DNA from: a virus
Taxonomy: Duplodnaviria > Heunggongvirae > Uroviricota > Caudoviricetes
DNA: 12,515 bases
Direction: 5' to 3' (one strand)
Virus record (IMG/VR): IMGVR_UViG_2531839620_000015
Below the pieces are notes generated by a model. That model was not told the origin of the DNA. It was given only the letters and a program-made list of their open reading frames with translations, and ran no database searches. Shown piece by piece: positions 1 through 12,515 of the stretch (positions are counted from its first letter, which is position 1; every line of letters begins with the position of its first letter). A program made the position numbers and the translations under genes.

Positions 1-1541
1 TGCTTCGCCTGACCGTGGCCGCGGATGACGGCAGTGAGCGGCTGGTCAGCACGGCCCGGACGACGGAAACCACATACCGCTTCACGCAACTGGCGCTGGG
101 GAACTACAGGCTGACAGTCCGGGCGGTAAATGCGTGGGGACAGCAGGGCGATCCGGCGTCGGTATCGTTCCGGATTGCCGCACCGGCAGCGCCGTCACAG
201 ATTGAGCTGACACCGGGCTATTTTCAGATAACAGCGGTCCCGCGTCTTGCGGTGTATGACCCGACGGTACAGTTTGAGTTCTGGTTTTCGGAAACGCGGA
301 TTACCGATATCAGGCAGGTTGAAACCACAGCCCGCTACCTTGGCACGGGGCTGTACTGGATAGCCGCCAGTATCAATATCAAACCGGGCCATGATTATTA
401 CTTTTATATCCGCAGTGTGAACACCGTTGGCAAATCGGCATTTGTGGAGGCTGTTGGCCAGCCGAGTGATGATGCATCCGGCTATCTGGATTTTTTCAAA
501 GGAGAGATAGGGAAAACCCATCTGGCTCAGGAGTTGTGGACTCAGATTGATAACGGTCAGCTTGCGCCTGACCTGGCGGAAATCAGAACGTCCATCACGG
601 ATGTCAGTAATGAAATCACGCAGACCGTCAATAAGAAACTGGAAGACCAGAGTGCAGCGATCCAGCAGATACAGAAGGTTCAGGTTGATACAAATAATAA
701 CCTGAACAGCATGTGGGCAGTGAAGCTGCAGCAGATGCAGGACGGACGCCTTTATATTGCGGGTATCGGTGCCGGTATTGAGAACACCTCTGACGGCATG
801 CAGAGTCAGGTGCTGCTGGCGGCAGACAGGATTGCGATGATTAATCCTGCGAATGGCAACACAAAGCCGATGTTTGTTGGTCAGGGCGATCAGATATTCA
901 TGAATGAAGTGTTCCTGAAATATCTGACGGCTCCCACCATTACCAGTGGCGGCAATCCTCCGGCATTTTCCCTGACATCAGACGGAAAGCTGACCGCGAA
1001 AAATGCGGATATCAGTGGCAGTGTGAATGCGAACTCCGGGACGCTCAACAACGTCACGGTAAATGAAAACTGTACGATTAAGGGCATGCTGGAGGCGACT
1101 CAGGTCAGAGGTGACTTCGTTAAAGCTGTATCCAAATCATTTCCGAAACAGGCTGGTACGTGGGGTAACACGGAAACACCAAACGGGACGGTTACAGTCA
1201 CCATCAGCGATGATCATAACTTTGACCGTCAAATCATTATTCCGCCCATTATCTTTAACGGAATAGCGTATAGCGATCCGGGAAGTGGTAATAACCCGGG
1301 AGGTACAAGATACACGGGTTATGGTTTTGAAGTTCGCAAAAACGGTGTATTAATCGCATCCAGAGAAACTAAAGGGGCCATTCCCGGTAGCTACAGTGCG
1401 GTTATTGATATGCCGAGTGGCAGGGGAAGCGTCACTCTGGAGTTTAAGGTTTTCCATAAAGGCAATCAGCGGGCAGGTAATATCACCGACTGTACGGTGA
1501 TTGTGACCAAAAAAGCGGCTTCCGGCATCAGTATCCGTTGA
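1..1541 (+). CDS. J: Host-specificity / central tail fibre protein J, C-terminal ~510 aa (5' end lies off-window; reading frame begins at nt 3)
   Basis: Open frame runs from the window edge to TGA at 1539-1541. It sits immediately upstream of lom-stf-tfa, the canonical lambda order J-lom-stf-tfa. Identity rests mainly on this synteny and on size, not on a remembered sequence match. Confidence 0.75.
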
Positions 1542-1563
1542 AATATTTATAACCCTAATAACG

Positions 1564-1590
1564 GGCGCCAGAAATGGCGCCTTTTTTATT
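1564..1590 (+). terminator. Rho-independent terminator after J
   Basis: Perfect 7-bp stem GGCGCCA (1564-1570) / TGGCGCC (1575-1581) with GAAA tetraloop, followed by TTTTTT (1582-1587). Confidence 0.7.
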
Positions 1591-1611
1591 GCAGAAAATC
1601 GGGAGGTAATT

Positions 1612-2211
1612 ATGCGTAAAGTTTGTGCAGCAATTTTGTCCGCAGCCATTTGTCTGGCCGTATCCGGTGTGCCTGCATGGGCGTCTGAGCATCAGTCCAC
1701 GCTGAGCGCAGGATATCTTCATGCCAGTACGGACGCTCCCGGCAGCGATGATCTGAACGGGATTAACGTGAAATACCGTTATGAGTTTACGGACACACTG
1801 GGGCTGATTACGTCCTTCAGTTATGCCAACGCCGAAGATGAGCAAAAAACGCATTACAGCGATACCCGCTGGCATGAGGATTACGTGCGTAACCGCTGGT
1901 TCAGCGTGATGGCAGGGCCGTCTGTGCGTGTGAATGAATGGTTCAGTGCGTATGCGATGGCGGGTGTGGCTTACAGCCGTGTGTCGACTTTTTCCGGGGA
2001 TTATTTCCGCGTAACTGACAACAAGAGGAAAACGCACGACGTGCTGACCGGAAGTGATGACGCTCGCTACAGCAACACATCTCTGGCGTGGGGGGCTGGC
2101 GTGCAGTTTAACCCGACCGAATCAGTGGCCGTTGATGTCGCTTATGAAGGCTCCGGCAGCGGTGACTGGCGCACTGACGGTTTCATCGTGGGTGTCGGTT
2201 ATAAATTTTGA
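1612..2211 (+). CDS. lom: Lom, outer-membrane beta-barrel protein of the Ail/Lom/PagC/OmpX family (lambda moron)
   Basis: 199 aa. SD GGGAGG at 1601-1606, 5 nt before ATG 1612. N-terminal signal peptide MRKVCAAILSAAICLAVSGVPAWA. C-terminus ...GSGSGDWRTDGFIVGVGYKF matches lambda Lom as I remember it. Position between J and stf as in lambda. Confidence 0.9.
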   Translation: MRKVCAAILSAAICLAVSGVPAWASEHQSTLSAGYLHASTDAPGSDDLNGINVKYRYEFTDTLGLITSFSYANAEDEQKTHYSDTRWHEDYVRNRWFSVMAGPSVRVNEWFSAYAMAGVAYSRVSTFSGDYFRVTDNKRKTHDVLTGSDDARYSNTSLAWGAGVQFNPTESVAVDVAYEGSGSGDWRTDGFIVGVGYKF

Positions 2212-2232
2212 TTAGTAACACAGCGTTATGAC

Positions 2233-2262
2233 AGCCCGCCGGTTCAGGCGGGCTTTTTTGTG
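2233..2262 (+). terminator. Rho-independent terminator after lom
   Basis: Stem AGCCCGCC (2233-2240) / GGCGGGCT (2247-2254), loop GGTTCA, followed by TTTTTT (2255-2260). Confidence 0.7.
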
Positions 2263-2270
2263 GAGTGGGT

Positions 2271-5189
2271 ATGGCAGCAGTACAAATATCAGGCGTGCTG
2301 AAAGATGGTGCGGGAAAACCAATACAGAACTGCACAATCCAGCTGAAAGCAAAACGTAACAGTACCACGGTGGTGGTGAACACGGTGGCCTCTGAAAATC
2401 CGGATGAAGCCGGGCGTTACAGCATGGACGTTGAGTACGGTCAGTACAGCGTCATTCTGTTGGTGGAGGGATTCCCGCCGTCACATGCCGGGACCATCAC
2501 CGTGTATGAAGATTCTCAACCCGGTACGCTGAATGATTTTCTTGGTGCCATGACTGAGGATGATGTCCGTCCGGAGGCACTGCGCCGTTTTGAGCTGATG
2601 GTGGAAGAGGTGGCGCGTAACGCGTCCGCGGTGGCACAGAACACGGCAGCCGCGAAGAAGTCAGCCAGCGATGCCAGCACATCAGCCCGTGAGGCGGCAA
2701 CCCATGCGACTGATGCTGCGGACTCAGCACGCGCAGCCAGCACGTCAGCCGGACAGGCCGCGTCGTCGGCTCAGTCAGCGTCTTCCAGCGCAGGAACGGC
2801 ATCAACAAAGGCTACTGAAGCATCAAAAAGTGCTGCCGCTGCAGAGTCCTCAAAAAGCGCGGCGGCTACCAGTGCCGGTGCGGCGAAAACGTCAGAAACG
2901 AATGCGGCAGTGTCACAACAATCAGCCGCCACTTCTGCATCCACCGCGACCACGAAAGCGTCAGAAGCTGCCTCCTCAGCCAGGGATGCGTCGGCTTCAA
3001 AAGAGGCGGCAAAATCATCAGAAACGAGCGCAGCCTCGAGCGCCAGTAGTGCAGCCTCCTCGGCAACGGCGGCAGGCAATTCCGCGAAGGCGGCCAAAAC
3101 GTCTGAGACAAACGCTAAGTCCTCTGAAACGGCAGCAGAACAGAGTGCCTCCGCAGCAGCAGGCTCAAAAACAGCGGCTGCATTATCTGCCAGTGCCGCG
3201 TCAACAAGTGCCGGGCAGGCCTCAGCCAGTGCCACCGCCGCCGGAAAATCGGCAGAAAGTGCCGCATCGTCTGCTTCAACAGCCACAACGAAGGCTGGCG
3301 AAGCCACTGAACAGGCCAGCGCAGCAGCGAGTTCTGCTTCCGCAGCGAAGACATCCGAAACGAACGCGAAAGCGTCGGAAACCAGCGCAGAATCCTCAAA
3401 AACGGCTGCCGCATCGTCAGCCAGTTCGGCGGCGTCATCGGCATCATCTGCGTCTGCTTCAAAAGATGAGGCGACCAGACAAGCGTCAGCAGCGAAGAGC
3501 AGCGCCACGACGGCATCCACGAAGGCGACAGAGGCAGCTGGTAGTGCGACGGCAGCAGCTCAGAGCAAAAGTACGGCGGAATCTGCAGCAACGCGCGCTG
3601 AGACAGCGGCAAAACGGGCAGAGGATATTGCATCCGCCGTGGCGCTTGAGGATGCGAGCACGACGAAAAAGGGGATAGTACAGCTCAGCAGTGCGACTAA
3701 CAGCACTTCCGAGTCACTGGCGGCAACGCCAAAAGCCGTTAAGGCCGCGTATGAGCTGGCTAACGGGAAATACACCGCACAGGATGCAACGACAGCACAG
3801 AAAGGGATAGTTCAGCTTAGCAACGCGACCAACAGCACATCTGAAATGCTGGCGGCAACGCCAAAGTCGGTAAAGGCAGCCTATGACCTTGCTAACGGGA
3901 AATATACTGCTCAGGACGCTACGACAGCACAAAAAGGAATTGTCCAGCTCAGTAGTGCAACCAACAGCGCATCTGAAACGCTTGCCGCGACACCGAAAGC
4001 AGTGAAAGCAGCTAATGATAATGCGAATGGTCGGGTACCTTCTGCCCGTAAGGTGAATGGTAAGGCGCTTTCATCGGATATAACACTGACGCCGAAAGAT
4101 ATTGGTACGCTTAACTCAACAACAATGTCATTCAGCGGTGGTGCTGGTTGGTTCAAATTAGCAACGGTAACCATGCCACAGGCGAGTTCTGTTGTTTCAA
4201 TTACGTTGATTGGTGGCGCGGGATTTAACGTGGGGTCACCTCAACAGGCAGGTATATCTGAACTTGTTTTGCGTGCAGGTAATGGTAATCCGAAGGGGAT
4301 TACTGGTGCTTTATGGCAGCGCACATCGACAGGGTTTACAAATTTTGCCTGGGTCAATACATCTGGTGATACTTACGATATTTACGTTGCAATCGGAAAT
4401 TATGCGACTGGTGTAAATATTCAATGGGATTATACCAGTAATGCCAGCGTGACGATTCATACGTCACCAGCATATTCTGCTAATAAGCCGGAAGGGTTAA
4501 CGGACGGTACAGTTTATTCACTCTATACGCCATCAGAGCAGTTTTATCCGCCTGGCGCACCAATCCCGTGGCCATCAGATACCGTTCCGTCTGGCTATGC
4601 CCTGATGCAGGGGCAGACTTTTGACAAATCTGCATACCCGAAACTTGCAGCCGCTTATCCGTCAGGCGTGATCCCTGATATGCGTGGCTGGACGATTAAG
4701 GGCAAACCTGCCAGTGGTCGGGCCGTATTGTCTCAGGAACAGGACGGCATTAAATCGCACACCCACAGCGCCAGCGCATCCAGTACGGATTTGGGGACGA
4801 AAACCACATCGTCGTTTGATTACGGCACTAAATCCACGAATAACACCGGGGCGCACACGCACAGTGTGAGCGGTACAGCCGCAAGTGCCGGAAACCATAC
4901 TCATAGTGTCACAGGCGCATCAGCAGTCAGCCAGTGGTCACAAAATGGGTCAGTACATAAGGTAGTGTCTGCGGCCAGTGTGAATACAAGTGCTGCAGGA
5001 GCGCACACTCATAGTGTCAGCGGCACAGCTGCATCTGCAGGTGCTCACGCACATACTGTCGGTATTGGTGCTCATACGCACTCTGTTGCGATTGGCTCAC
5101 ATGGACACACCATCACCGTTAACGCTGCGGGTAACGCGGAAAACACTGTCAAAAACATCGCATTTAACTACATTGTGAGGCTTGCATAA
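2271..5189 (+). CDS. stf: Side tail fibre protein Stf (lambda Stf-like, 972 aa from ATG 2271)
   Basis: SD GGAG at 2262-2265, 5 nt before ATG 2271 (the ORF track starts at GTG 2265). N-terminus [17 protein letters not shown]...[16 protein letters not shown] and C-terminus ...[31 protein letters not shown] match remembered lambda Stf. Contains a long Ala/Ser/Thr-rich low-complexity region (about 2640-3640), three tandem 44-aa repeats, and His-rich HTHS motifs near the C-terminus. Confidence 0.9.
3660..4013 (+). repeat. Three tandem 132-bp (44-aa) coding repeats inside stf (phage tail-fibre repeat type), third copy truncated
   Basis: Repeat units begin at 3669, 3801 and 3933 (exact 132-nt period). 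Units read KGIVQLS[SN]ATNS[TA]SE[SMT]LAATPK[AS]VKAAY[ED][15 protein letters not shown]. Copies differ mostly at synonymous positions. Confidence 0.85.
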
Positions 5190-5767
5190 TGGCATTCAGA
5201 ATGAGTGAACAACCACGGACCATAAAAATTTATAATCTGCTGACCGGAACTAATGAATTTATTGGTGAAGGTGACGCATATATTCCGCCTCATACAGGTC
5301 TGCCAGCAAACAGTACCGATATTGCACCGCCAGATATTCCGGCTGGCTTCGTGGCTGTTTTCAACAGTAATGAGGCATCGTGGCATCTCGTTGAAGATCA
5401 TCGGGGTAAAACGGTTTATGACGTGGCTTCCGGCGACGCGTTATTTATTTCTGAACTCGGTCCGTTACCGGAAAATGTTACCTGGTTGTCGCCGGATGGA
5501 GAGTGTCAGAAGTGGAACGGCACATCCTGGGCGAAAGATGCAGAAGCAGAAAAACTGTTTCGGGTACGGGAGGCAGAAGAAACAAAAAACAGCCTGATGC
5601 AGGTAGCCAGTGAGCATATTGCGCCACTTCAGGATGCCGTAGATTTGGATATTGCGACGGAGGAAGAGGCATCGTTACTGGCTGCATGGAAGACATATCG
5701 GGTATTGTTGAATCGTGTTGATACAACAGTAGCAGCGGATGTTGAGTGGCCAGTCGCCCCACAATAA
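5189..5767 (+). CDS. tfa: Tail fibre assembly protein Tfa (lambda Tfa-like)
   Basis: 192 aa. ATG 5189 overlaps the stf stop (TAATG). N-terminus [18 protein letters not shown]...[26 protein letters not shown] matches remembered lambda Tfa. Stop TAA at 5765-5767. Confidence 0.9.
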
Positions 5768-5773
5768 AAAGAA

Positions 5774-5803
5774 AAAGCCATCGACAGAAATATCGATGGC
5801 TTT
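5774..5803. terminator. Bidirectional hairpin terminator between convergent tfa (+) and the acetyltransferase gene (-)
   Basis: 11-bp perfect stem AAAGCCATCGA (5774-5784) / TCGATGGCTTT (5793-5803) with an 8-nt loop. On the minus strand it is followed by a T-rich tract (TTTTCTTTTTATTG). On the plus strand the U-tract is weak (TTTATGT). Confidence 0.6.
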
Positions 5804-5810
5804 ATGTACT

Positions 5811-6383
5811 CTATTTATACAATACAACACCACTCTTTTTAGTTATATATGTGCAGTTTGATGGTATATCTTTATTTATAAAAGACATTGCACCTATTTT
5901 TACATTATCCCCAATTTTACGTGATAATCCAATGATGCAACAATTAGCTCCGATATCAACGTTACTACCAATTTTTACTCTTGAACTAGGCATATCACCA
6001 TCTATCTGTCCAATGGTAGTATTCTGTCGTAATACCAGATTTTCACCCGCATCAACAGCAAAATGAACAACAATTCCAGCATGATGGGGAATTGTCAACC
6101 CTTTTCCAATATTTGCGCCCAATCCTATTTCACAACCAAACTTGTTAATTATTTTACTGTTTAACTTTTTGGCTGCTTTCTTATGTAATTTATTACCATT
6201 AATATACATTTCGTTAGCCAACCGCCACCAGAAAAGGAAATTCCGGTTACGCTGCTTTTTCTCTCTTAAAAGCCTCCAGATATCCATACGTTTCCGCCGA
6301 ATTACTTCATGTTTCCAGAAGTTTTTTAAATTAGTAGAGTTTCCAAATAAAACAAAGTGAATTGCCATTAAGTAAGATAGCAC
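5811..6383 (-). CDS. Hexapeptide-repeat O-acetyltransferase, serine acetyltransferase (CysE) / WcaB-like left-handed beta-helix family; likely start GTG 6383 (the ORF track extends to GTG 6416)
   Basis: The C-terminal half shows imperfect hexapeptide repeats (IGANIGKGLTI, HAGIVV, TTIGQ, VKIGSNVDIGANCCIIG, KIGDNVKIGAMSFI), preceded by a basic/aromatic N-terminal region as in the SAT family. A perfect SD AAGGAG lies 6 nt upstream of the in-frame GTG at 6383-6381. Neither GTG 6416 nor ATG 6368 has an SD. The gene is visibly AT-rich relative to its flanks. No signal peptide or transmembrane segment is apparent. Confidence 0.7.
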   Translation of the reverse strand: MLSYLMAIHFVLFGNSTNLKNFWKHEVIRRKRMDIWRLLREKKQRNRNFLFWWRLANEMYINGNKLHKKAAKKLNSKIINKFGCEIGLGANIGKGLTIPHHAGIVVHFAVDAGENLVLRQNTTIGQIDGDMPSSRVKIGSNVDIGANCCIIGLSRKIGDNVKIGAMSFINKDIPSNCTYITKKSGVVLYK

Positions 6384-6434
6384 GATAATCTCCTTAATTA
6401 TTATTTCAGACCACACATGTTATAAGGTTAAGAG

Positions 6435-6463
6435 ATTATAAAATCCTGTTATTTGTTATTCAA
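6435..6463 (-). promoter_or_regulatory. Candidate sigma70 promoter for the acetyltransferase gene
   Basis: Read on the minus strand: -35 TTGAAT (plus coordinates 6458-6463), 17-bp spacer, -10 TATAAT (plus coordinates 6435-6440), about 50 nt upstream of the GTG 6383 start. Confidence 0.4.
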
Positions 6464-6539
6464 AAACAATTTTCTGAGAAGGACATACAACAGCAAGTCG
6501 CCAGTCACCTTCATCAGGAAATTGGCGACATACGTTAAA

Positions 6540-7028
6540 TCAGAGCAGCCCCTTAACTGAGCTGGCCGCGCTATTAAGGGATGATGTCACCTTATCTTTG
6601 AAGCCGGACAGCATATCGCTGAACGATGAGGATTGCAGGCGCTCCCGCAAATCCTCATCACAGCGTTCAAGAGTCAGTGAAAATTCTATCTTTTTCGCCT
6701 TACCGTAGCGATCAAACTCGGAGCGGGTCGTATTCGTTCCGGTCAGGACATACATGCCGTAAATCTGCCCGACGCCATCAATCAAAGGCCAAGGACGTCC
6801 TGTATATGCCTGCGTGGTCAACAACGACAGCGACACTTCGCCACCAGTAATCTCAGGATAAAGAACACCAGAAAGAACGATGCGATCATCACCTGCACCG
6901 ATATACTGCCAGCTTGCTGAACGGTTAACGCGTTCATTTTTCACATGTCGCCAGCTTTTGTTTTGCTGTAACTGCTGATGCGGCAACGTGCGCAGCTCAA
7001 AAACAAACATGCCGTAGATCATCATCAT
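6540..7028 (-). CDS. P2 gpU-like tail protein; likely start at the third Met (7028), ORF track start 7034
   Basis: Motifs LYPEITGG, WPLIDG and KIEFSL and the MMMIYGMFVF N-terminus resemble the phage P2 GpU family as I remember it. It lies immediately downstream of the tape measure, as in P2 (T-U). SD GAGGAG (7042-7037) is 8 nt from ATG 7028. The tape-measure stop (7043-7041) overlaps this SD. Confidence 0.7.
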   Translation of the reverse strand: MMMIYGMFVFELRTLPHQQLQQNKSWRHVKNERVNRSASWQYIGAGDDRIVLSGVLYPEITGGEVSLSLLTTQAYTGRPWPLIDGVGQIYGMYVLTGTNTTRSEFDRYGKAKKIEFSLTLERCDEDLRERLQSSSFSDMLSGFKDKVTSSLNSAASSVKGLL

Positions 7029-7040
7029 GGCCATGACTCC

Positions 7041-9880
7041 TCAATCTTTATCGTAAAAACTGCCACGCCTGGCACGGGCGCGCCGTTCCATTTCTGCCCT
7101 GACCATTTCGCCGACCAGTTTCGCCAGTTCGCGGGGATTCTGCGTAACAACGTTATGCAGATGAACATGAATTTCACCGCCAAATCCGGAGGCAACAGGC
7201 TCCCGGTTACGGGAAGTTGCAGGAACTGATGCCACTGGCGATCGTATGGCCTCCACCACCGGGCGGGAGCTGGCCGCAACAACAGGGACCAGCGCCGGAG
7301 GCAGCGGAGCCGGGACCACGGGTGTGATATTAATTGCGGGGGCAGGCTTACTGACCTGCGCAATCTTCCGCTCCTGCCACTCCCCACGAACAGCAAGTGC
7401 GCGGGGCAGGTTCTTAAAGACAATATCGCCGGGGCCAATGCGTTTTTTTGTCTCATCAACCAGCTTACCTGTGTTATCAGCAATTTTGCTGAGTCTGCGT
7501 AGCGTGCCGGTATTGCTGTCTGTGAGAGGTTTGTTGTCTTTGGGTTTATCATCTCCGGTGCCATTGCTATTTCCCGCAGACTTCGGCGGATTGATTTTCG
7601 CAATGTCTCCCTGAAACAGAGCAACCTTGTCCTGAAGAATGGCCGCACGTTGTGCGTCTTCGATTTTCTTGCGCGCCCTTTCCGCTTCATCCGGAAGCAC
7701 ACCGAGTTTTTCAAGTATCCACGCCAGCGTATCCAGCAACATTTTTGCAGGCGTCAGAACAAGCTGTAACGCACCACCAAGAACGTTACCGAATACCTCG
7801 CCAGCACTGGTACATTTATCCAGCGTTTCCTTGCTGGACTCCATCGGTGACAGCAGCGATTTAAACCAGTTAAACACCTGGCTGAACCGCTTCCGATTAC
7901 GTCAAAAACAGGGCCAAACCGTTCAAAGGTGTCGCGCAACGGGGTCAGCCTTTCCATAATCCCGCTGAACACCCCGGCAAAGAAAGCCCTGATAGGATCC
8001 CAGTATTTCCAGATAAGAACGGCAGCTCCGGCAAGCGCAGCCACGATAAGACCAACCGGACTGAACAACGCCCCGATAACGCCTCCCAGTAAAGAAACGG
8101 AACCCGTCACCATTCCCCATAGCGCAGGTAACACCCTGACGACATTCATTGACCGGGTAAGAATGTCAAAACCAAGACGCAGGGTGGCCAGCTTCCCGTA
8201 AAGCACCCCAATAACCAGCGACAACGAGCCAATCGTTGCAGTCATTGCCAGCAACGCACCGCCTGCTATCAGTAGCTGGCGCGTCAGTACCGGATGGGCC
8301 TGCGCCAGCGAGGTGATTTTTTCAAGCACCCGCGTGAGCCACTGCGTGACAGAACGCAGCGGACCGTCAACCAGATCACTGATGCGAATACGAAGACCTT
8401 CCCATGCGCTGTCGAGATTTTTCAGGTCCCCATCAAGATTATCAGCCATTACTTTTGCGACGCGATCGGCCTCTCCCCTTGCCCCCTGCAATTCTCTGGT
8501 CAGTTTTTGCAGCTCTCCTGAACCAGCCGCCGCAACAAGCGTCTGCAAACCAACGAACGCCTCTTCTCCGGCGATGTCCTTGAAGAAGGAGACCTGGTCC
8601 ACCTGTCCGTATTTTTGTGTCGCCTTATAGAGATCAAGCAGCACATCCTCCATCGGGCGCATTTTGCCTCTGGCGTCAGCAACTGACACCCCCAGCTCTT
8701 TCAGTGCATCAGCCGCAGCTTTTGGCGGTGATGCAAGGCGGGACAGACTTGCGCGCATGGCCGTGCCAGCATCGCTTCCGCGAAGACCATTATTGGCAAG
8801 CATCCCGGCCATGGCCGCCGCTTCTTCAAGACTGATACCAAGTTTTGCGGCAACCGGACCGGTATACTTCATGGTTTCGCCCAGCGCGCGTAAATCAGTA
8901 TTGGTCCGGGTAAATGCTGCTGTCAGCGTATCGCCCACCCGGTCCATTTGATCGGCTGTCAGGTTGAACTGTGTGAGGATATTGGAGCCTATATCAGCCG
9001 TCTCGCCGAGTTCGACGCCACCTGCCAGCGCCATATTAAGAACACCGGGCAATGCGGCCTGAATGGCCTGCGGAGTAAAACCAGCCATTGCCAGAAAGCT
9101 CTGCCCACTGGCGGCATCACTCGCAGTAAACTGTGTTTCAGCAAGTTTTAACGCCTGCTCACGCAGCGCCTTAAACTGCGGGCTGTTTTTGTCGATTCGC
9201 GTCAGTGCCTGAACGCGGGACATCTCTTTGCCGAACCCGATCGCAGGCTGCAAAAAACGCCCGGCAGCATAGCCGCCCGCCGCTGCCGCACCAATTGCCA
9301 GCGCACCACCTGTTTTCAGTTTTCCCGCGGTTTCCTGCGCGTGCGAATACCGCTCACGCGCCTGCGTTACACGCGCAAGCGCCTGCCGTTCGCGTTCAAG
9401 CTGGTTGTTGTATTGTTCGGTGCGTCTGATGGCCTGCTGAATGGTGTTATCGCTGCCTGTCAGGGAAATGCCGTGGCGTTTCAGCTCTCCGCCAAGTTCC
9501 CTCATTTTCTGAATTTCCCGTGTGCGCGATTCATTCAGGCGTTCAAGCCGGGTGCTTAACTGCTGCATCAGCTTTTGTTGTTTTTCGCTGAGCACTGTAC
9601 CCGTGCGTTGTAACTGATTAAGGGCGTTAAGCTGGCGTCGTGCTTTCACGATGCCAGCATCCGCTTTACTGACAGCGTCGCGGGCGCGCTCAAATGATCG
9701 CGCCTGACGCTCGAGATTTTTGATCGCCCCCTGCGTTCGCTGGATGGAGTCACCAAACTGCCCCATCAGGCGGCGTGCGTTTTCGGCAGGTCGGGTCAGC
9801 CTGTCAACGGCGCTGAAAGCGACCCGGATATCAAGAGTCTTCATTGTCTGCATTCCCGCTGCGAAGTGCCGCCCGCTCAC
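7041..9880 (-). pseudogene. P2-like tail tape measure protein, split into two overlapping reading frames (7754-9880, 708 aa, and 7041-7877, 278 aa) by a frameshift
   Basis: The long ORF is helix-rich with a hydrophobic/Gly-rich segment typical of tape measures, and sits between E/E' and gpU as in P2. Its last ~40 codons (…ARCLTGLNRCCHRWSPARKRW…) look non-protein-like. The other frame opens at 7901 and reads plausibly (FNWFKSLLSPMESSKETLDK…) through to a stop that overlaps the gpU SD. The start is a GTG at 9880 and is uncertain; in-frame ATGs follow at 9853 and 9844. Confidence 0.7.
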
Positions 9881-10360
9881 GCCAGCTAACCACTTCGCCG
9901 GGCGTCATCATGAAGATTTCGGCGGGCGACCAGTTAAAAATAACGGCAATATCTGCCACAAAGTCTTCTATGTGCTCAAAGCACACAACCGTGATCAGGC
10001 TTCCGTCGCCTGTTCGTTCTTCCCGCCAGAGTCCGCACCGCTCAAAAAATTTACGGCAACCACACATAACTGAATAAAGTCACGGGATGCCATTTTTTTG
10101 ATCGTCACTTCATCCAGTCGCGGTGATGTCACGCGTGACAGCAGCGTAAACATGGATTCCGCTTTCAGATTCAGCACATCAGACAGCGACAAATCTCGCA
10201 GAGATCCAGCCTGCTCAATAGCCCCGGTGATCTCCACATACGTGATTTTTTCGCCGCCTCGCTCAATTGGTTGGGTAAGTTTTACACCACGCTCACTGGT
10301 TTCTTTCACAGTGTCAGTAACTACCGTGTTTTCGGTATCGATGTTTTTCGTCTCTTTCAT
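9831..10360 (-). CDS. Tail assembly chaperone E+E' fusion, made by programmed -1 ribosomal frameshift
   Basis: Minus-strand heptamer TTTTTTG (plus coordinates 10043-10049) lies in the E / E' overlap. The -1 frame continues open for about 70 codons (…KFFERCGLWREERTGDGSLITVVCFEHIEDF…) to TGA at 9833-9831, overlapping the tape-measure start, as in P2 E/E'-T. Confidence 0.6.
9995..10360 (-). CDS. Tail assembly chaperone, P2 gpE-like (121 aa)
   Basis: SD AAGGAG 7 nt before ATG 10360. Small acidic protein between the tube gene and the tape measure, with the slippery site in its 3' part, as for P2 E. Confidence 0.65.
   Translation of the reverse strand: MKETKNIDTENTVVTDTVKETSERGVKLTQPIERGGEKITYVEITGAIEQAGSLRDLSLSDVLNLKAESMFTLLSRVTSPRLDEVTIKKMASRDFIQLCVVAVNFLSGADSGGKNEQATEA
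10043..10049 (-). promoter_or_regulatory. Slippery heptamer TTTTTTG for the E/E' -1 frameshift
   Basis: Sequence GTA AAT TTT TTG AGC in the E frame; the T6G run is the classic chaperone slip site of P2-like and other long-tailed phages. Confidence 0.6.
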
Positions 10361-10414
10361 CAGGAAACTCCTTTCAGTCAGAGGCGACGCACTGCGCCGC
10401 CTGCATATTACTTA

Positions 10415-10927
10415 TCAGCCAAGCCCAAGCGCGGAACGGATGCGATCGGGCACAATGTCCTTGCCGTCCTTCCGGTAAATGAAGTTCAGCAGGTCAATCT
10501 CCCACAACGGGCGATCGTTAACACTCAGCTTGTAGTAGGTGTTTTTAATGGCGTAAGTGTGTGATGTGGCTTCGCCCTGTTTGGCTTCCCCCATATCAAT
10601 TTCCGTCACACGTCCGCGCATTTCGACTTCATACAGGTCGCTTTCATCATCGGTGTAGTATTCCCCCGCAAAACGCAGTAGCGTGCCGTCAATCGTGCCG
10701 CCATACTTCAGGAACAGCTCACGAACTGCGCCCCCCATGACAAAGCTCGCATCAAGCGCGGAGTCGTCCAGGCCGAGGTCAATACTTACCGCACCCATCA
10801 TGCCACCACCCCGGTAGCTGTCGGTTTTGCGCGTCAGTTTAGGCAGGGTGACGGACGTCACCTTACCCACTTCGTTTTCACCATCCACAAACAGCGTAAA
10901 AAAGCGAAGATGTTTTGGTACAGCCAT
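10415..10927 (-). CDS. Major tail tube protein (P2 FII-like, 170 aa)
   Basis: Motif VTLPKLTRKTDSYRGGGM and overall length match remembered P2 FII. ATG 10927 overlaps the sheath stop (TGATG). SD GGAGGT upstream. Confidence 0.85.
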   Translation of the reverse strand: MAVPKHLRFFTLFVDGENEVGKVTSVTLPKLTRKTDSYRGGGMMGAVSIDLGLDDSALDASFVMGGAVRELFLKYGGTIDGTLLRFAGEYYTDDESDLYEVEMRGRVTEIDMGEAKQGEATSHTYAIKNTYYKLSVNDRPLWEIDLLNFIYRKDGKDIVPDRIRSALGLG

Positions 10928-12111
10928 CAGGCACCTCCCAGCACCGCAAATGCGGGACCAAAGAATTCATCAGTAAACGACTGGTAAAGCTCCATGTCTT
11001 CCAGCGGAGGAACGGGCGTATATTTGTAGCGAATACGCACACGCCCCTGACGTAAATTCGTGGTGCTGTTATCCTCGATGTCATACCAGCACTCCGCGCC
11101 AATCAGTTTCCCGGCAGTAACCAGTGAATCCAGTTTTGCCCTGATGGCACTGATAACATCCTTCACGTTCGCAGGTGTCAGTGGACTGTCGATGGTTTCA
11201 AACTGCGCTTCCGCAATTGAATCAGCCAGCACCTGTGCGGTTCGGGTATACACCTCAAAGATGTAGGCGTTCGTTTCCGGTGTGCGGTTGCCCCAGAAGC
11301 GGAACCCGTTGCGACGAATAATGGTCGTGATTTCTTTGTTGTTGAGGCTGTTGGCATCACTGTCTTCGGCCTGCAACGACCAGAACACATGCCTCGACAT
11401 CCCAAGCACATTTTTAACCGGAACGTTGGACAGCGATTTGTGCCAGCCCTGCTCATGGTCAATGTACGCACGAAGGCCGCACGCATAAGCAGGCGCGGGG
11501 AACGTTTCGTTTTTGCCACTTTTCAGGTTGTAGGCGATGAAGTCAGGCCATAAGAGCATCACCTCACGTTCGTTGAATTTCTGGCGGTAGGTAATCGCCT
11601 CAGCCATCGTGTTACAACCATGACATGTGGCATACACAAACGCGCGCAGTTTACCCGCAATCACGCACAGGGATTTTGTTACCGCCTCCGTGTCCAGCTC
11701 CGGCGCGGCCAGAATACGCGGACGGTATCCGATGCTTTCATCCTGCTCTGCAACAAGCAGCGCATACATCCCCGTATAGCTGCCGTCAGATTCAGAACCA
11801 CCGATAACCAGTTGATCCTGCGTCTTACCGCCTTCTTCTTTGTGTTCAGCCACGCGAACGACGATCACTTTTGTGCTCACCTGGTCTGCGATAGCCTTAA
11901 GCGCACGATAAAGCGTCCCCGTAGTCCCGCATTTTCCCAGCACGTCATTGACGCGGGTCAGCAGTGTGGGCTTGTTCAGCGGGAACAGCTCCGCGTCCGC
12001 ATCATCTGCCGTTGCCACGATACCGATAACACTGGAATCAACATCATTAATCGCTGTTACCAGGTCGGTACTTTCCGTAACACGGGCACCATGAAAACGA
12101 GTTTCACTCAT
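10927..12111 (-). CDS. Contractile tail sheath protein (P2 FI-like, 394 aa)
   Basis: Motifs GFRFWGNRT, YTRTAQV and YTPVPPLE and the length match remembered P2 FI. SD AAGGGG 8 nt before ATG 12111. Confidence 0.9.
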   Translation of the reverse strand: MSETRFHGARVTESTDLVTAINDVDSSVIGIVATADDADAELFPLNKPTLLTRVNDVLGKCGTTGTLYRALKAIADQVSTKVIVVRVAEHKEEGGKTQDQLVIGGSESDGSYTGMYALLVAEQDESIGYRPRILAAPELDTEAVTKSLCVIAGKLRAFVYATCHGCNTMAEAITYRQKFNEREVMLLWPDFIAYNLKSGKNETFPAPAYACGLRAYIDHEQGWHKSLSNVPVKNVLGMSRHVFWSLQAEDSDANSLNNKEITTIIRRNGFRFWGNRTPETNAYIFEVYTRTAQVLADSIAEAQFETIDSPLTPANVKDVISAIRAKLDSLVTAGKLIGAECWYDIEDNSTTNLRQGRVRIRYKYTPVPPLEDMELYQSFTDEFFGPAFAVLGGA

Positions 12112-12268
12112 AGCTTCAGCCCCTTGTATCCGTTAAATGATTCGGCAACAATCATCACCCACCACGCGCGTAATCTCACCCCTGCGCCGTTCTCCCGCCA
12201 CGGCGACAACAAAAAGCAGTAACCCCCTCCGCACGCACATGCGACCATGCCGCACAGGGAGGGAACAG

Positions 12269-12321
12269 ATGACCGACACCACCATGCAATTGCTCAGTCA
12301 GGGCACAGACCACGTGAAAGT
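12269..12321 (+). other. 5' fragment (17 codons, MTDTTMQLLSQGTDHVK) of an ORF with a strong RBS, apparently cut by the IS insertion
   Basis: SD GGGAGGG 6 nt upstream of ATG 12269. The reading frame runs directly into the IS terminal sequence at 12322. Too short to assign a function. Confidence 0.3.
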
Positions 12322-12515
12322 TGAACCGCCCCGGAAATCCTGGAGACTAAACTCCCTGAGAAAGAGGTAAACAGGATGACTAAAAATACTCGTTTTTCCC
12401 CCGAAGTCCGTCAGCGGGCGATTCGTATGGTTCTGGAAAGTCAGGATGAATATGACTCACAGTGGGCGGCAATTTGTTCCATTGCCCCAAAGATTGGCTG
12501 TACGCCGGAGACTCT
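12322..12515 (+). mobile_element. IS3-family insertion sequence, left end (continues off-window)
   Basis: The terminal sequence begins TGAACCGCC… (IS3-family ends start with TG), about 54 bp before the orfA ATG. The OrfA N-terminus resembles IS629/IS1203-type elements from memory. Confidence 0.75.
12376..12515 (+). CDS. IS3-family transposase OrfA (helix-turn-helix N-terminal part), 3' end off-window
   Basis: Translation [46 protein letters not shown] closely resembles the OrfA of IS629-like elements as I remember it. SD GAGG upstream. Confidence 0.8.

What the first reader, a model, noticed from the sequence alone, without database searches (positions are those of the whole stretch)
7754..7905. 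Frameshift splitting the tape measure gene
The tape-measure frame is plausible up to about ...FERFGPVFDVIGSGSA and then decays into Cys/Arg/Trp-rich sequence ending at 7754. A second frame opens at 7901 and reads as good protein for 278 codons to a stop that overlaps the gpU ribosome-binding site. P2-type tape measures are not known to use programmed frameshifting, so this is most simply a net 1-nt loss (or 2-nt gain) near 7875-7901, meaning either an inactivating mutation in a decaying prophage or a sequencing error. An A5/T5 run sits right at 7903-7909.
Basis: seen in the sequence. Interest (0 to 1): 0.45.

Follow-up and report, generated by a model that had tools for sequence, protein, structure and literature searches.

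The report
Frameshifted tape measure pseudogene, O157:H7 prophage
The tail tape measure gene of a decayed P2-like prophage of E. coli O157:H7 is broken by a real, inherited one-base net loss that public annotation already flags, so the finding is correct but ordinary.

Summary
On the minus strand, a 708-codon ORF (7754..9880) and a 278-codon ORF in the -1 frame (7041..7877) are the two halves of one P2-type tape measure gene.

Aligned with intact orthologues (935 aa in O55:H7 DEC5B, O157:H7 LSU61 and 493/89, and phage 500465-2), the lesion is GGGATC>GGTTC. This is a GA>T replacement with a net loss of 1 nt at window 7886/7887. It is not at the A5/T5 run, which is conserved. Restoring one base gives a single ORF of 934 aa from the ATG at 9844, or 946 aa from the GTG at 9880.

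It is not a sequencing error. The 81-nt allele is exact in 264 complete E. coli genome records. Every other homologue row listed spans 82 nt.

NCBI's PGAP pipeline already annotates the gene as "frameshifted". The element corresponds to the defective P2-like prophage described as Sp13 in strain Sakai. In typical O157:H7 it has no baseplate, head or lysis genes, and its gpD is a fragment next to insertion sequences.

A T_TTA_AAT heptamer lies in register 22 nt downstream. Its measured -1 shift in E. coli is only about 0.1-0.3%, and no homologue shares the split.

Verdict: already known, low interest.

The parts
7754..9844 (-). 5' part of the tape measure (gpT) pseudogene: 653 native codons, 43 out-of-frame codons and a stop. 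The mechanical ORF starts further upstream, at the GTG at 9880.
   Evidence: ORF list and translation. PF10145 E=7.9e-55. TIGR01760 E=1.9e-84 over residues 190-536. 98% identity to residues 1-654 of the intact O55:H7 orthologue. PGAP start and 'frameshifted' flag in EDL933.
7885..7888 (-). Lesion site. The window reads GGTT where intact orthologues read GGGAT (GA>T replacement, net -1 nt). The T at 7886 is the new base. The change also removes a GATC site.
   Evidence: Alignments A1 and A2; coordinates. Neither single-step intermediate allele occurs exactly in 5,426 genomes.
7754..7886 (-). Out-of-frame tail of ORF1: 43 missense codons plus the stop at 7756-7754. In the -1 frame the same bases encode native residues 655 onward.
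7041..7886 (-). 3' part of the tape measure gene, in the -1 frame relative to ORF1. It encodes residues 655-935 of the intact protein. The frame is open from 7901; the mechanical ORF is 7041..7877.
   Evidence: 280/281 identity to DEC5B tape measure residues 655-935. No family model covers this part.
7859..7865 (-). T_TTA_AAT heptamer in register with ORF1, inside the overlap zone. Judged a chance occurrence, not a recoding signal.
   Evidence: Scan found 3 in-register heptamers in 709 codons, about the number expected by chance. Measured -1 shift of U_UUA_AAU in E. coli is 0.13% with no stimulator, 0.07% with the IS911 stimulators and 0.28% with the IS3 pseudoknot. The downstream fold is unremarkable, z=-1.34.
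7904..7908 (+). It is conserved and is not the lesion.
   Evidence: GTTTTTGAC is identical in the window, EDL933, PV15-279, DEC5B and phage 500465-2.
9141..9142 (-). Site of an older in-frame 3-nt deletion in the tape measure gene (LKLGSET > LKLAET). EDL933 and PV15-279 share it; DEC5B and phage 500465-2 lack it.
   Evidence: Alignment A2 columns 740-742; protein alignment.
6540..7034 (-). gpU tail gene immediately downstream. Its Shine-Dalgarno sequence overlaps the tape measure stop codon.
   Evidence: PF06995 E=1.5e-38; sequence; annotation.
9831..10360 (-). Tail chaperone genes E (9995-10360) and E' (9831-9986) upstream of the tape measure gene. The operon's genuine programmed -1 frameshift heptamer, T_TTT_TTG, is at 10049-10043.
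   Evidence: Sequence; annotation; P2 E/E+E' frameshift at TTTTTTG (PMC3091744).
10415..12111 (-). Tail tube (FII, 10415-10927) and tail sheath (FI, 10927-12111) genes of the same operon.
   Evidence: PF04985 E=1.3e-47 for the tube gene. Sheath and tube are annotated in EDL933 and strain 4276.

Best explanation
This is a genuine, vertically inherited frameshift mutation that inactivates the tape measure gene (gpT) of a defective P2-like (P88/Xuanwuvirus-type) prophage of E. coli O157:H7. This prophage has been described as Sp13 in strain Sakai. One mutational step changed GGGATC to GGTTC at codon 654/655 of a gene of about 935 codons. Ribosomes therefore read 653 native codons and 43 missense codons, then stop at 7754. 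The last 281 codons sit unread in the -1 frame. Shown here: the lesion, its position, its presence in hundreds of independent assemblies, intact orthologues in earlier-branching relatives, and other lesions in the same prophage. Inferred: the truncated protein cannot support tail assembly, because it lacks the C-terminal third, and the mutation persists because the element has no selection for making tails. It lacks baseplate, head, packaging and lysis genes.
For: The split and both translations are. The lesion is pinned by alignment to intact genes. ORF1 matches residues 1-654 and ORF2 matches residues 655-935 of the intact protein. A one-base repair gives a single ORF. The tape measure region is 100% identical to EDL933 and many other O157:H7 genomes. 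The 81-nt allele is exact in 264 records, and every other full-length row listed spans 82 nt. The ancestral 82-nt allele is exact in 25 records. These include LSU61 and 493/89, which have intact 2808-bp genes. O55:H7 DEC5B also has an intact tape measure gene inside a much more complete prophage. PGAP marks the gene 'frameshifted' in EDL933 and strain 4276. Those two records show a remnant with no baseplate, head or lysis genes. EDL933 has a gpD fragment next to IS30 and an IS3-family remnant; strain 4276 has two IS3-family/IS1203 copies. Other O157 strains carry independent lesions in the same gene: IS1203 truncation in PV15-279 and F3113, an internal stop in F3113, and an IS1203 insertion in strain 1613. 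Sp13 is described as lacking most morphogenetic genes, with one tail function scored defective (PMC2669165).
Against: An in-register T_TTA_AAT heptamer lies 22 nt downstream of the lesion and could in principle restore the frame. No expression or protein data were available. I did not confirm directly that strain Sakai is among the 264 records. The window's own strain was not identified: its junction with lambdoid DNA is not contiguous in any complete genome in the collection.
Confidence: 0.95

Rival explanations
1. Sequencing or assembly error: the real gene is intact and one base was dropped in this record.
For: Single-base indels are a common assembly artefact. The window's left part has a junction not found in complete genomes, so the source assembly may not be perfect.
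Against: The same 81-nt allele is exact in 264 complete-genome records from many laboratories. The full 2,840-nt tape measure region is 100% identical in EDL933 and at least 24 other listed genomes. The change is a GA>T replacement, not a homopolymer miscount.
Confidence: 0.01
2. Translational rescue: a -1 ribosomal frameshift at T_TTA_AAT (7865-7859) returns ribosomes to the native frame. The result would be a full-length tape measure protein with nine substituted residues (SARCLTGLN in place of ISQVFNWFK).
For: The heptamer has the X_XXY_YYZ form, is in register with ORF1 and lies inside the overlap zone. The product would have the native length (inference).
Against: U_UUA_AAU shifts only 0.13% without a stimulator and 0.28% even with the IS3 pseudoknot in E. 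coli, against a background of 0.04-0.07% (PMC4066793). The downstream RNA fold is no better than shuffled sequence (z=-1.34, 16 of 200 shuffles). ORF1 has three in-register heptamers in 709 codons, which is the chance expectation. In the ancestor the heptamer was out of register, so it cannot have evolved as a signal. None of the other homologues listed has the split.
Confidence: 0.02
3. Two functional genes: the N-terminal 696-aa product and a separately initiated C-terminal product both act. The second would start at the GTG at 7877 or at the ATG at 7742, 12 nt after the ORF1 stop.
For: Start codons exist in the second frame, and the ATG at 7742-7740 lies 12 nt downstream of the ORF1 stop, which could allow reinitiation.
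Against: No convincing Shine-Dalgarno sequence precedes either start. Intact relatives, including phages deposited as complete genomes, encode one protein. The one phage record with a split tape measure gene (520873) is split at a different place. A tape measure protein acts as one continuous ruler (established knowledge of the family). The rest of the tail module is missing in this lineage.
Confidence: 0.02

Closest known systems
Intact orthologous tape measure proteins: WP_000853409.1 (O55:H7 DEC5B), WP_000853406.1 (LSU61), WP_000853407.1 (493/89), and YP_009949284.1 (Escherichia phage 500465-2, Gemsvirus, Peduoviridae)
   Same: Same gene in the same operon (sheath, tube, E, E', T, U). DNA identity across the window's P2-like segment (5189-12319) is 99.5% to DEC5B, and 96% across the tape measure region to phage 500465-2. 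The flanking proteins are identical in DEC5B.
   Different: They are single ORFs of 935 aa. The window has GGTT in place of GGGAT at codon 654/655, plus an older in-frame 3-nt deletion.
Defective P2-like prophage of E. coli O157:H7 (Sp13 in Sakai; the same locus next to tRNA-Leu in EDL933)
   Same: The tape measure region is 100% identical to EDL933. PGAP annotates the gene 'frameshifted' there and in strain 4276. Sp13 is published as lacking most morphogenetic genes.
   Different: In the window, the tail fibre assembly gene is complete and joined to a lambdoid J-lom-stf block. In EDL933 and strain 4276 it is cut by an IS3-family element.
Phage P2 gpT and the TP901-family tape measure core (TIGR01760, PF10145)
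   Same: The core domain is present in ORF1, and the gene sits between the E/E' chaperone genes and gpU.
   Different: The gene belongs to the P88/Xuanwuvirus-Gemsvirus branch of Peduoviridae rather than to P2 itself. It is interrupted.
Programmed -1 frameshift of the tail chaperone genes E/E+E' of P2 (TTTTTTG)
   Same: It is a frame change within the same tail operon. The real E/E' site, T_TTT_TTG, is present and intact at 10049-10043.
   Different: The E/E' signal is conserved across P2-like phages and yields two useful products. The break in the tape measure gene is lineage-specific, has no efficient slippery site and has no conserved counterpart.

Membership tests
Phage tail tape measure protein (TP901-family core; P2 gpT type) | Match to the tape measure core domain above the curated cut-off | tested here: met
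   PF10145: 186.3 bits against a cut-off of 33.2. TIGR01760: 283.7 bits against a cut-off of 28.8, covering ORF1 residues 190-536.
Phage tail tape measure protein (TP901-family core; P2 gpT type) | Position in the tail operon between the frameshifted chaperone pair (E/E') and gpU, downstream of sheath and tube | tested here: met
   Window order on the minus strand is FI, FII, E, E', T, U.
Phage tail tape measure protein (TP901-family core; P2 gpT type) | One uninterrupted reading frame spanning the whole ruler (about 935 codons in orthologues) | tested here: not met
   The gene is split at codon 654/655 into two frames. It is therefore a pseudogene of this family, not a working member.
Programmed -1 ribosomal frameshift site | X_XXY_YYZ heptamer in the zero frame inside the overlap of the two frames | tested here: met
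   T_TTA_AAT at 7865-7859. It is met in form only: the measured efficiency in E. coli is 0.07-0.28%.
Programmed -1 ribosomal frameshift site | Stimulatory element: a stable structure 5-9 nt downstream, or an upstream Shine-Dalgarno-like sequence | tested here: inconclusive
   The 89 nt downstream fold to -29.6 kcal/mol, z=-1.34, with 16 of 200 shuffles as good. Nothing distinctive was found. Pseudoknots were not searched.
Programmed -1 ribosomal frameshift site | The two-frame architecture is conserved among homologues | tested here: not met
   Only the 264 records with the identical allele have it. Every other homologue row listed has the extra base. The intact genes examined are single ORFs.
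Frameshift pseudogene in a decaying prophage | Close relatives carry an intact single ORF, and the frame change coincides with an indel relative to them | tested here: met
   GGGATC>GGTTC lies exactly where homology moves from one frame to the other.
Frameshift pseudogene in a decaying prophage | Other inactivating lesions in the same element | tested here: met
   EDL933 has a gpD fragment next to IS30. IS3-family/IS1203 elements cut the tail fibre assembly gene. Baseplate, fibre, lysis and head genes are absent in EDL933 and strain 4276 but present in O55:H7 DEC5B. An IS1203 end lies at window 12322-12515.
Frameshift pseudogene in a decaying prophage | Independent lesions of the same gene in sister lineages (relaxed selection) | tested here: met
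   IS1203 truncates the tape measure gene in PV15-279 and F3113. F3113 also has an internal stop. Strain 1613 has IS1203 inside the gene.

The most novel reading that the evidence does not exclude
The mutation happened to put a U_UUA_AAU heptamer in register 22 nt downstream. About one ribosome in a thousand would then slip back into the native frame and make a full-length tape measure protein with nine altered residues. Such a trace of protein might still matter if the remnant tail genes are used in trans, for example by an incoming P2-like phage or during the packaging of Sp13 DNA reported for strain Sakai.
Probability: 0.03. Interest if true: 0.3.

Novelty: already known. Interest (0 to 1): 0.08.

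Why it matters
It matters little beyond housekeeping. The lesion is a clean lineage marker. It is absent from O55:H7 DEC5B, from LSU61 and 493/89, and from O157:H7 strains PV15-279 and F3113. It is exact in 264 complete-genome records, and all of those shown in the listings are O157:H7 or unlabelled strains. It adds one more dated step to the known decay of the P2-like prophage of this pathogen. It also shows that the tape measure gene should not be merged or "corrected" when these genomes are annotated.

Tried and rejected
1. Slip in the A5/T5 run at 7904-7908. Rejected: the run is identical in intact orthologues.

2. Simple loss of one G from a GGG run. Rejected as the whole story: the next base also differs (A>T). 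Neither intermediate allele, GGGTTC or GGATC, is exact in any of 5,426 genomes, so the change looks like one GA>T event.

3. Templated mutation from a nearby repeat. The new 7-mer GTTCAGC occurs 76 nt upstream. A 7-mer match is at chance level, so I did not pursue it.

4. Programmed frameshift. One in-register heptamer was found, but its measured efficiency is near background and there is no notable downstream structure.

5. A conserved split gene. The phage 520873 record has two tape measure CDS, but the split is near codon 381, not here.

6. Finding the window's source strain. No complete genome holds the whole window or its stf-tfa-acetyltransferase junction contiguously.

7. Not used, because the answer did not need them: the large protein database searches, structure prediction and RNA family searches.

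Full report
**What is in the sequence.** On the minus strand the mechanical ORF list shows 7754..9880 (708 aa) and 7041..7877 (278 aa) in different frames. The first ORF translates as a tape measure protein up to ...FERFGPVFDVIGSG. It then reads 43 residues rich in Arg, Cys and Trp, and stops at 7756-7754. The second frame is closed by a TGA at 7904-7902 and open from 7901. It reads as ordinary protein down to a TGA at 7043-7041. That stop lies inside TGAGGAG, just ahead of the gpU start codons at 7034 and 7028. The second frame is -1 relative to the first. The A5 run is at 7904-7908, and "278 codons" counts from the GTG at 7877 rather than from 7901.

**What the two ORFs are.** ORF1 carries the tape measure core domain: PF10145 at E=7.9e-55 and TIGR01760 at E=1.9e-84. 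The neighbours on the same strand are sheath, tube, E, E' and gpU, which is the P2-type tail operon. The whole 2,840-nt region matches 13 phage records of the P88/Xuanwuvirus-Gemsvirus group at 88-96% identity. It also matches 1,377 E. coli genome records, 270 of them at 99% or more. EDL933 and at least 24 other listed genomes, mostly labelled O157:H7, are 100% identical. In EDL933 and strain 4276, PGAP annotates the gene as a "frameshifted" pseudogene.

**Where the lesion is.** I aligned the window with the intact genes of phage 500465-2 and O55:H7 DEC5B, with O157:H7 PV15-279, and with EDL933. Intact genes read GGAAGCGGGATCAGCC. The window and EDL933 read GGAAGC-GGTTCAGCC. So GGGAT became GGTT, a GA>T replacement with a net loss of one base at window 7886/7887 on the minus strand. 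At the protein level, ORF1 residues 1-653 align with residues 1-654 of the 935-aa DEC5B protein. The second frame aligns with residues 655-935 at 280/281 identity. Putting one base back gives a single ORF of 934 aa from the ATG at 9844, or 946 aa from the GTG at 9880. The length difference of 4 nt from intact genes is this 1-nt loss plus an older in-frame 3-nt deletion between 9142 and 9141. PV15-279 and EDL933 share that deletion.

**Real mutation, not an error.** An 81-nt query centred on the lesion is matched exactly in 264 complete-genome records. Every other full-length row listed spans 82 nt in the record. The same query with one G added has no exact match, and neither does the deletion-only version. 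The two differences therefore appear together, with no sampled intermediate. The ancestral 82-nt allele is exact in 25 records. Among these, LSU61 and 493/89 have intact 2,808-bp tape measure genes. PV15-279 and F3113 have the ancestral site, but IS1203 has removed the 5' end of the gene, and F3113 also has an internal stop. O55:H7 DEC5B also has an intact tape measure gene. The frameshift therefore arose inside the O157:H7 lineage, after the in-frame 3-nt deletion, and has been inherited since.

**Context: a decaying prophage.** In O55:H7 DEC5B the same prophage still has baseplate, tail fibre, lysis and head-completion genes, although its endolysin has an internal stop. In EDL933 and strain 4276 the remnant next to tRNA-Leu keeps only:
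- sheath, tube, E, E', the broken tape measure gene and gpU;
- an acetyltransferase gene;
- a tail fibre assembly gene cut by an IS3-family element;
- partition (ParM) and replication genes.

EDL933 also has a gpD fragment next to IS30. The published analysis of strain Sakai describes its P2-like prophage Sp13 as lacking most morphogenetic genes. It scores one tail function as defective and the other morphogenesis, packaging and lysis functions as absent (PMC2669165). Strain 1613 has IS1203 inside the tape measure gene. Several independent hits on one gene in sister lineages are what relaxed selection produces.

**Could the split be functional?** I scanned ORF1 for X_XXY_YYZ heptamers in register and found three in 709 codons, which is the chance expectation. 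One of them, T_TTA_AAT at 7865-7859, lies in the overlap zone. A -1 slip there would restore the native frame and replace nine residues. The systematic E. coli measurements give 0.131% for this heptamer without a stimulator, 0.074% with the IS911 stimulators and 0.275% with the IS3 pseudoknot. Backgrounds in those assays are 0.04-0.07% (PMC4066793). The 89 nt downstream fold no better than shuffled sequence (z=-1.34). In the ancestral gene the heptamer was out of register, so it cannot be an evolved signal. Separate initiation of the C-terminal part is possible in principle, at the GTG at 7877 or at the ATG at 7742 just after the ORF1 stop. No good ribosome-binding site precedes either start, and no relative encodes the part separately at this point. 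The phage 520873 record does have a split tape measure gene, but the split is near codon 381. The operon's real programmed frameshift is the E/E' site, T_TTT_TTG at 10049-10043. It is intact and matches the P2 signal (PMC3091744).

**Mechanism and consequence.** Shown: ribosomes that start at 9844 leave the native frame after residue 653 and terminate at 7754. Inferred from general knowledge of tape measure proteins: the product lacks the C-terminal 281 residues and cannot act as a full-length ruler or nucleate a normal tail. Also inferred: in this lineage the loss has no further cost, because the baseplate, fibre, head and lysis genes are already gone.

**Verdict.** The sequencing-error branch is excluded. 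The feature is already flagged in public annotation and belongs to a prophage published as defective. It is ordinary and of low interest, apart from its use as a lineage marker.

Noticed in passing
window 10043-10049 (minus strand), within 9831-10360: The operon's genuine programmed -1 frameshift signal for the tail chaperones E/E+E' (T_TTT_TTG, in register with gene E) is intact. PGAP annotates E and E' as two separate CDS rather than as a frameshifted product.
   Followed up: partly
window 15-5317, junction at 5282-5317: The left third of the window is lambdoid: gpJ C-terminus at 15-1541, Lom at 1612-2211, and a side tail fibre gene at 2265-5189. It joins the P2-like remnant inside the tail fibre assembly gene. 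Up to 5281 the window carries differences from the P2-like copies. From 5318 it carries differences from the lambdoid copy. The crossover therefore lies in a 36-nt stretch shared by both. No complete E. coli genome in the collection has this junction contiguous. In strain 4276 the two partner loci are about 0.92 Mb apart in direct orientation. The source strain is therefore either rearranged or misassembled at a repeat.
   Followed up: partly
window 12322-12515: The right end of the window is the end of an IS1203 (IS629-type) element, 100% identical to the copy in PV15-279. It is inserted upstream of the sheath gene at a different point from the IS3-family element in strain 4276.
   Followed up: partly
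window 5811-6416 (minus strand): An acetyltransferase gene of the hexapeptide-repeat family sits between gpU and the tail fibre assembly gene. PGAP names it serine O-acetyltransferase, but its scores are far below the curated cut-offs for CysE, EpsC and WcaB. It looks like phage cargo. Phage 500465-2 has a DNA invertase at this position.
   Followed up: no
window 9141-9142 (minus strand): An in-frame 3-nt deletion in the tape measure gene (LKLGSET to LKLAET) is shared with EDL933 and PV15-279 and is absent from DEC5B and phage 500465-2. It predates the frameshift.
   Followed up: partly
window 7883-7888 (minus strand): The ancestral sequence at the lesion, GGGATC, contains a GATC site (Dam methylation, MutH nicking). 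The mutation to GGTTC removes it. I know of no mechanism linking the two.
   Followed up: no
L011 (phage 520873, NC_049344.1) 637-3443; L003 (PV15-279) 1577-3889; L010 (F3113) 2077-4389: The orthologous tape measure gene is damaged independently elsewhere. It is split near codon 381 in the phage 520873 record, truncated at the 5' end by IS1203 in PV15-279 and F3113, and carries an internal stop in F3113.
   Followed up: partly
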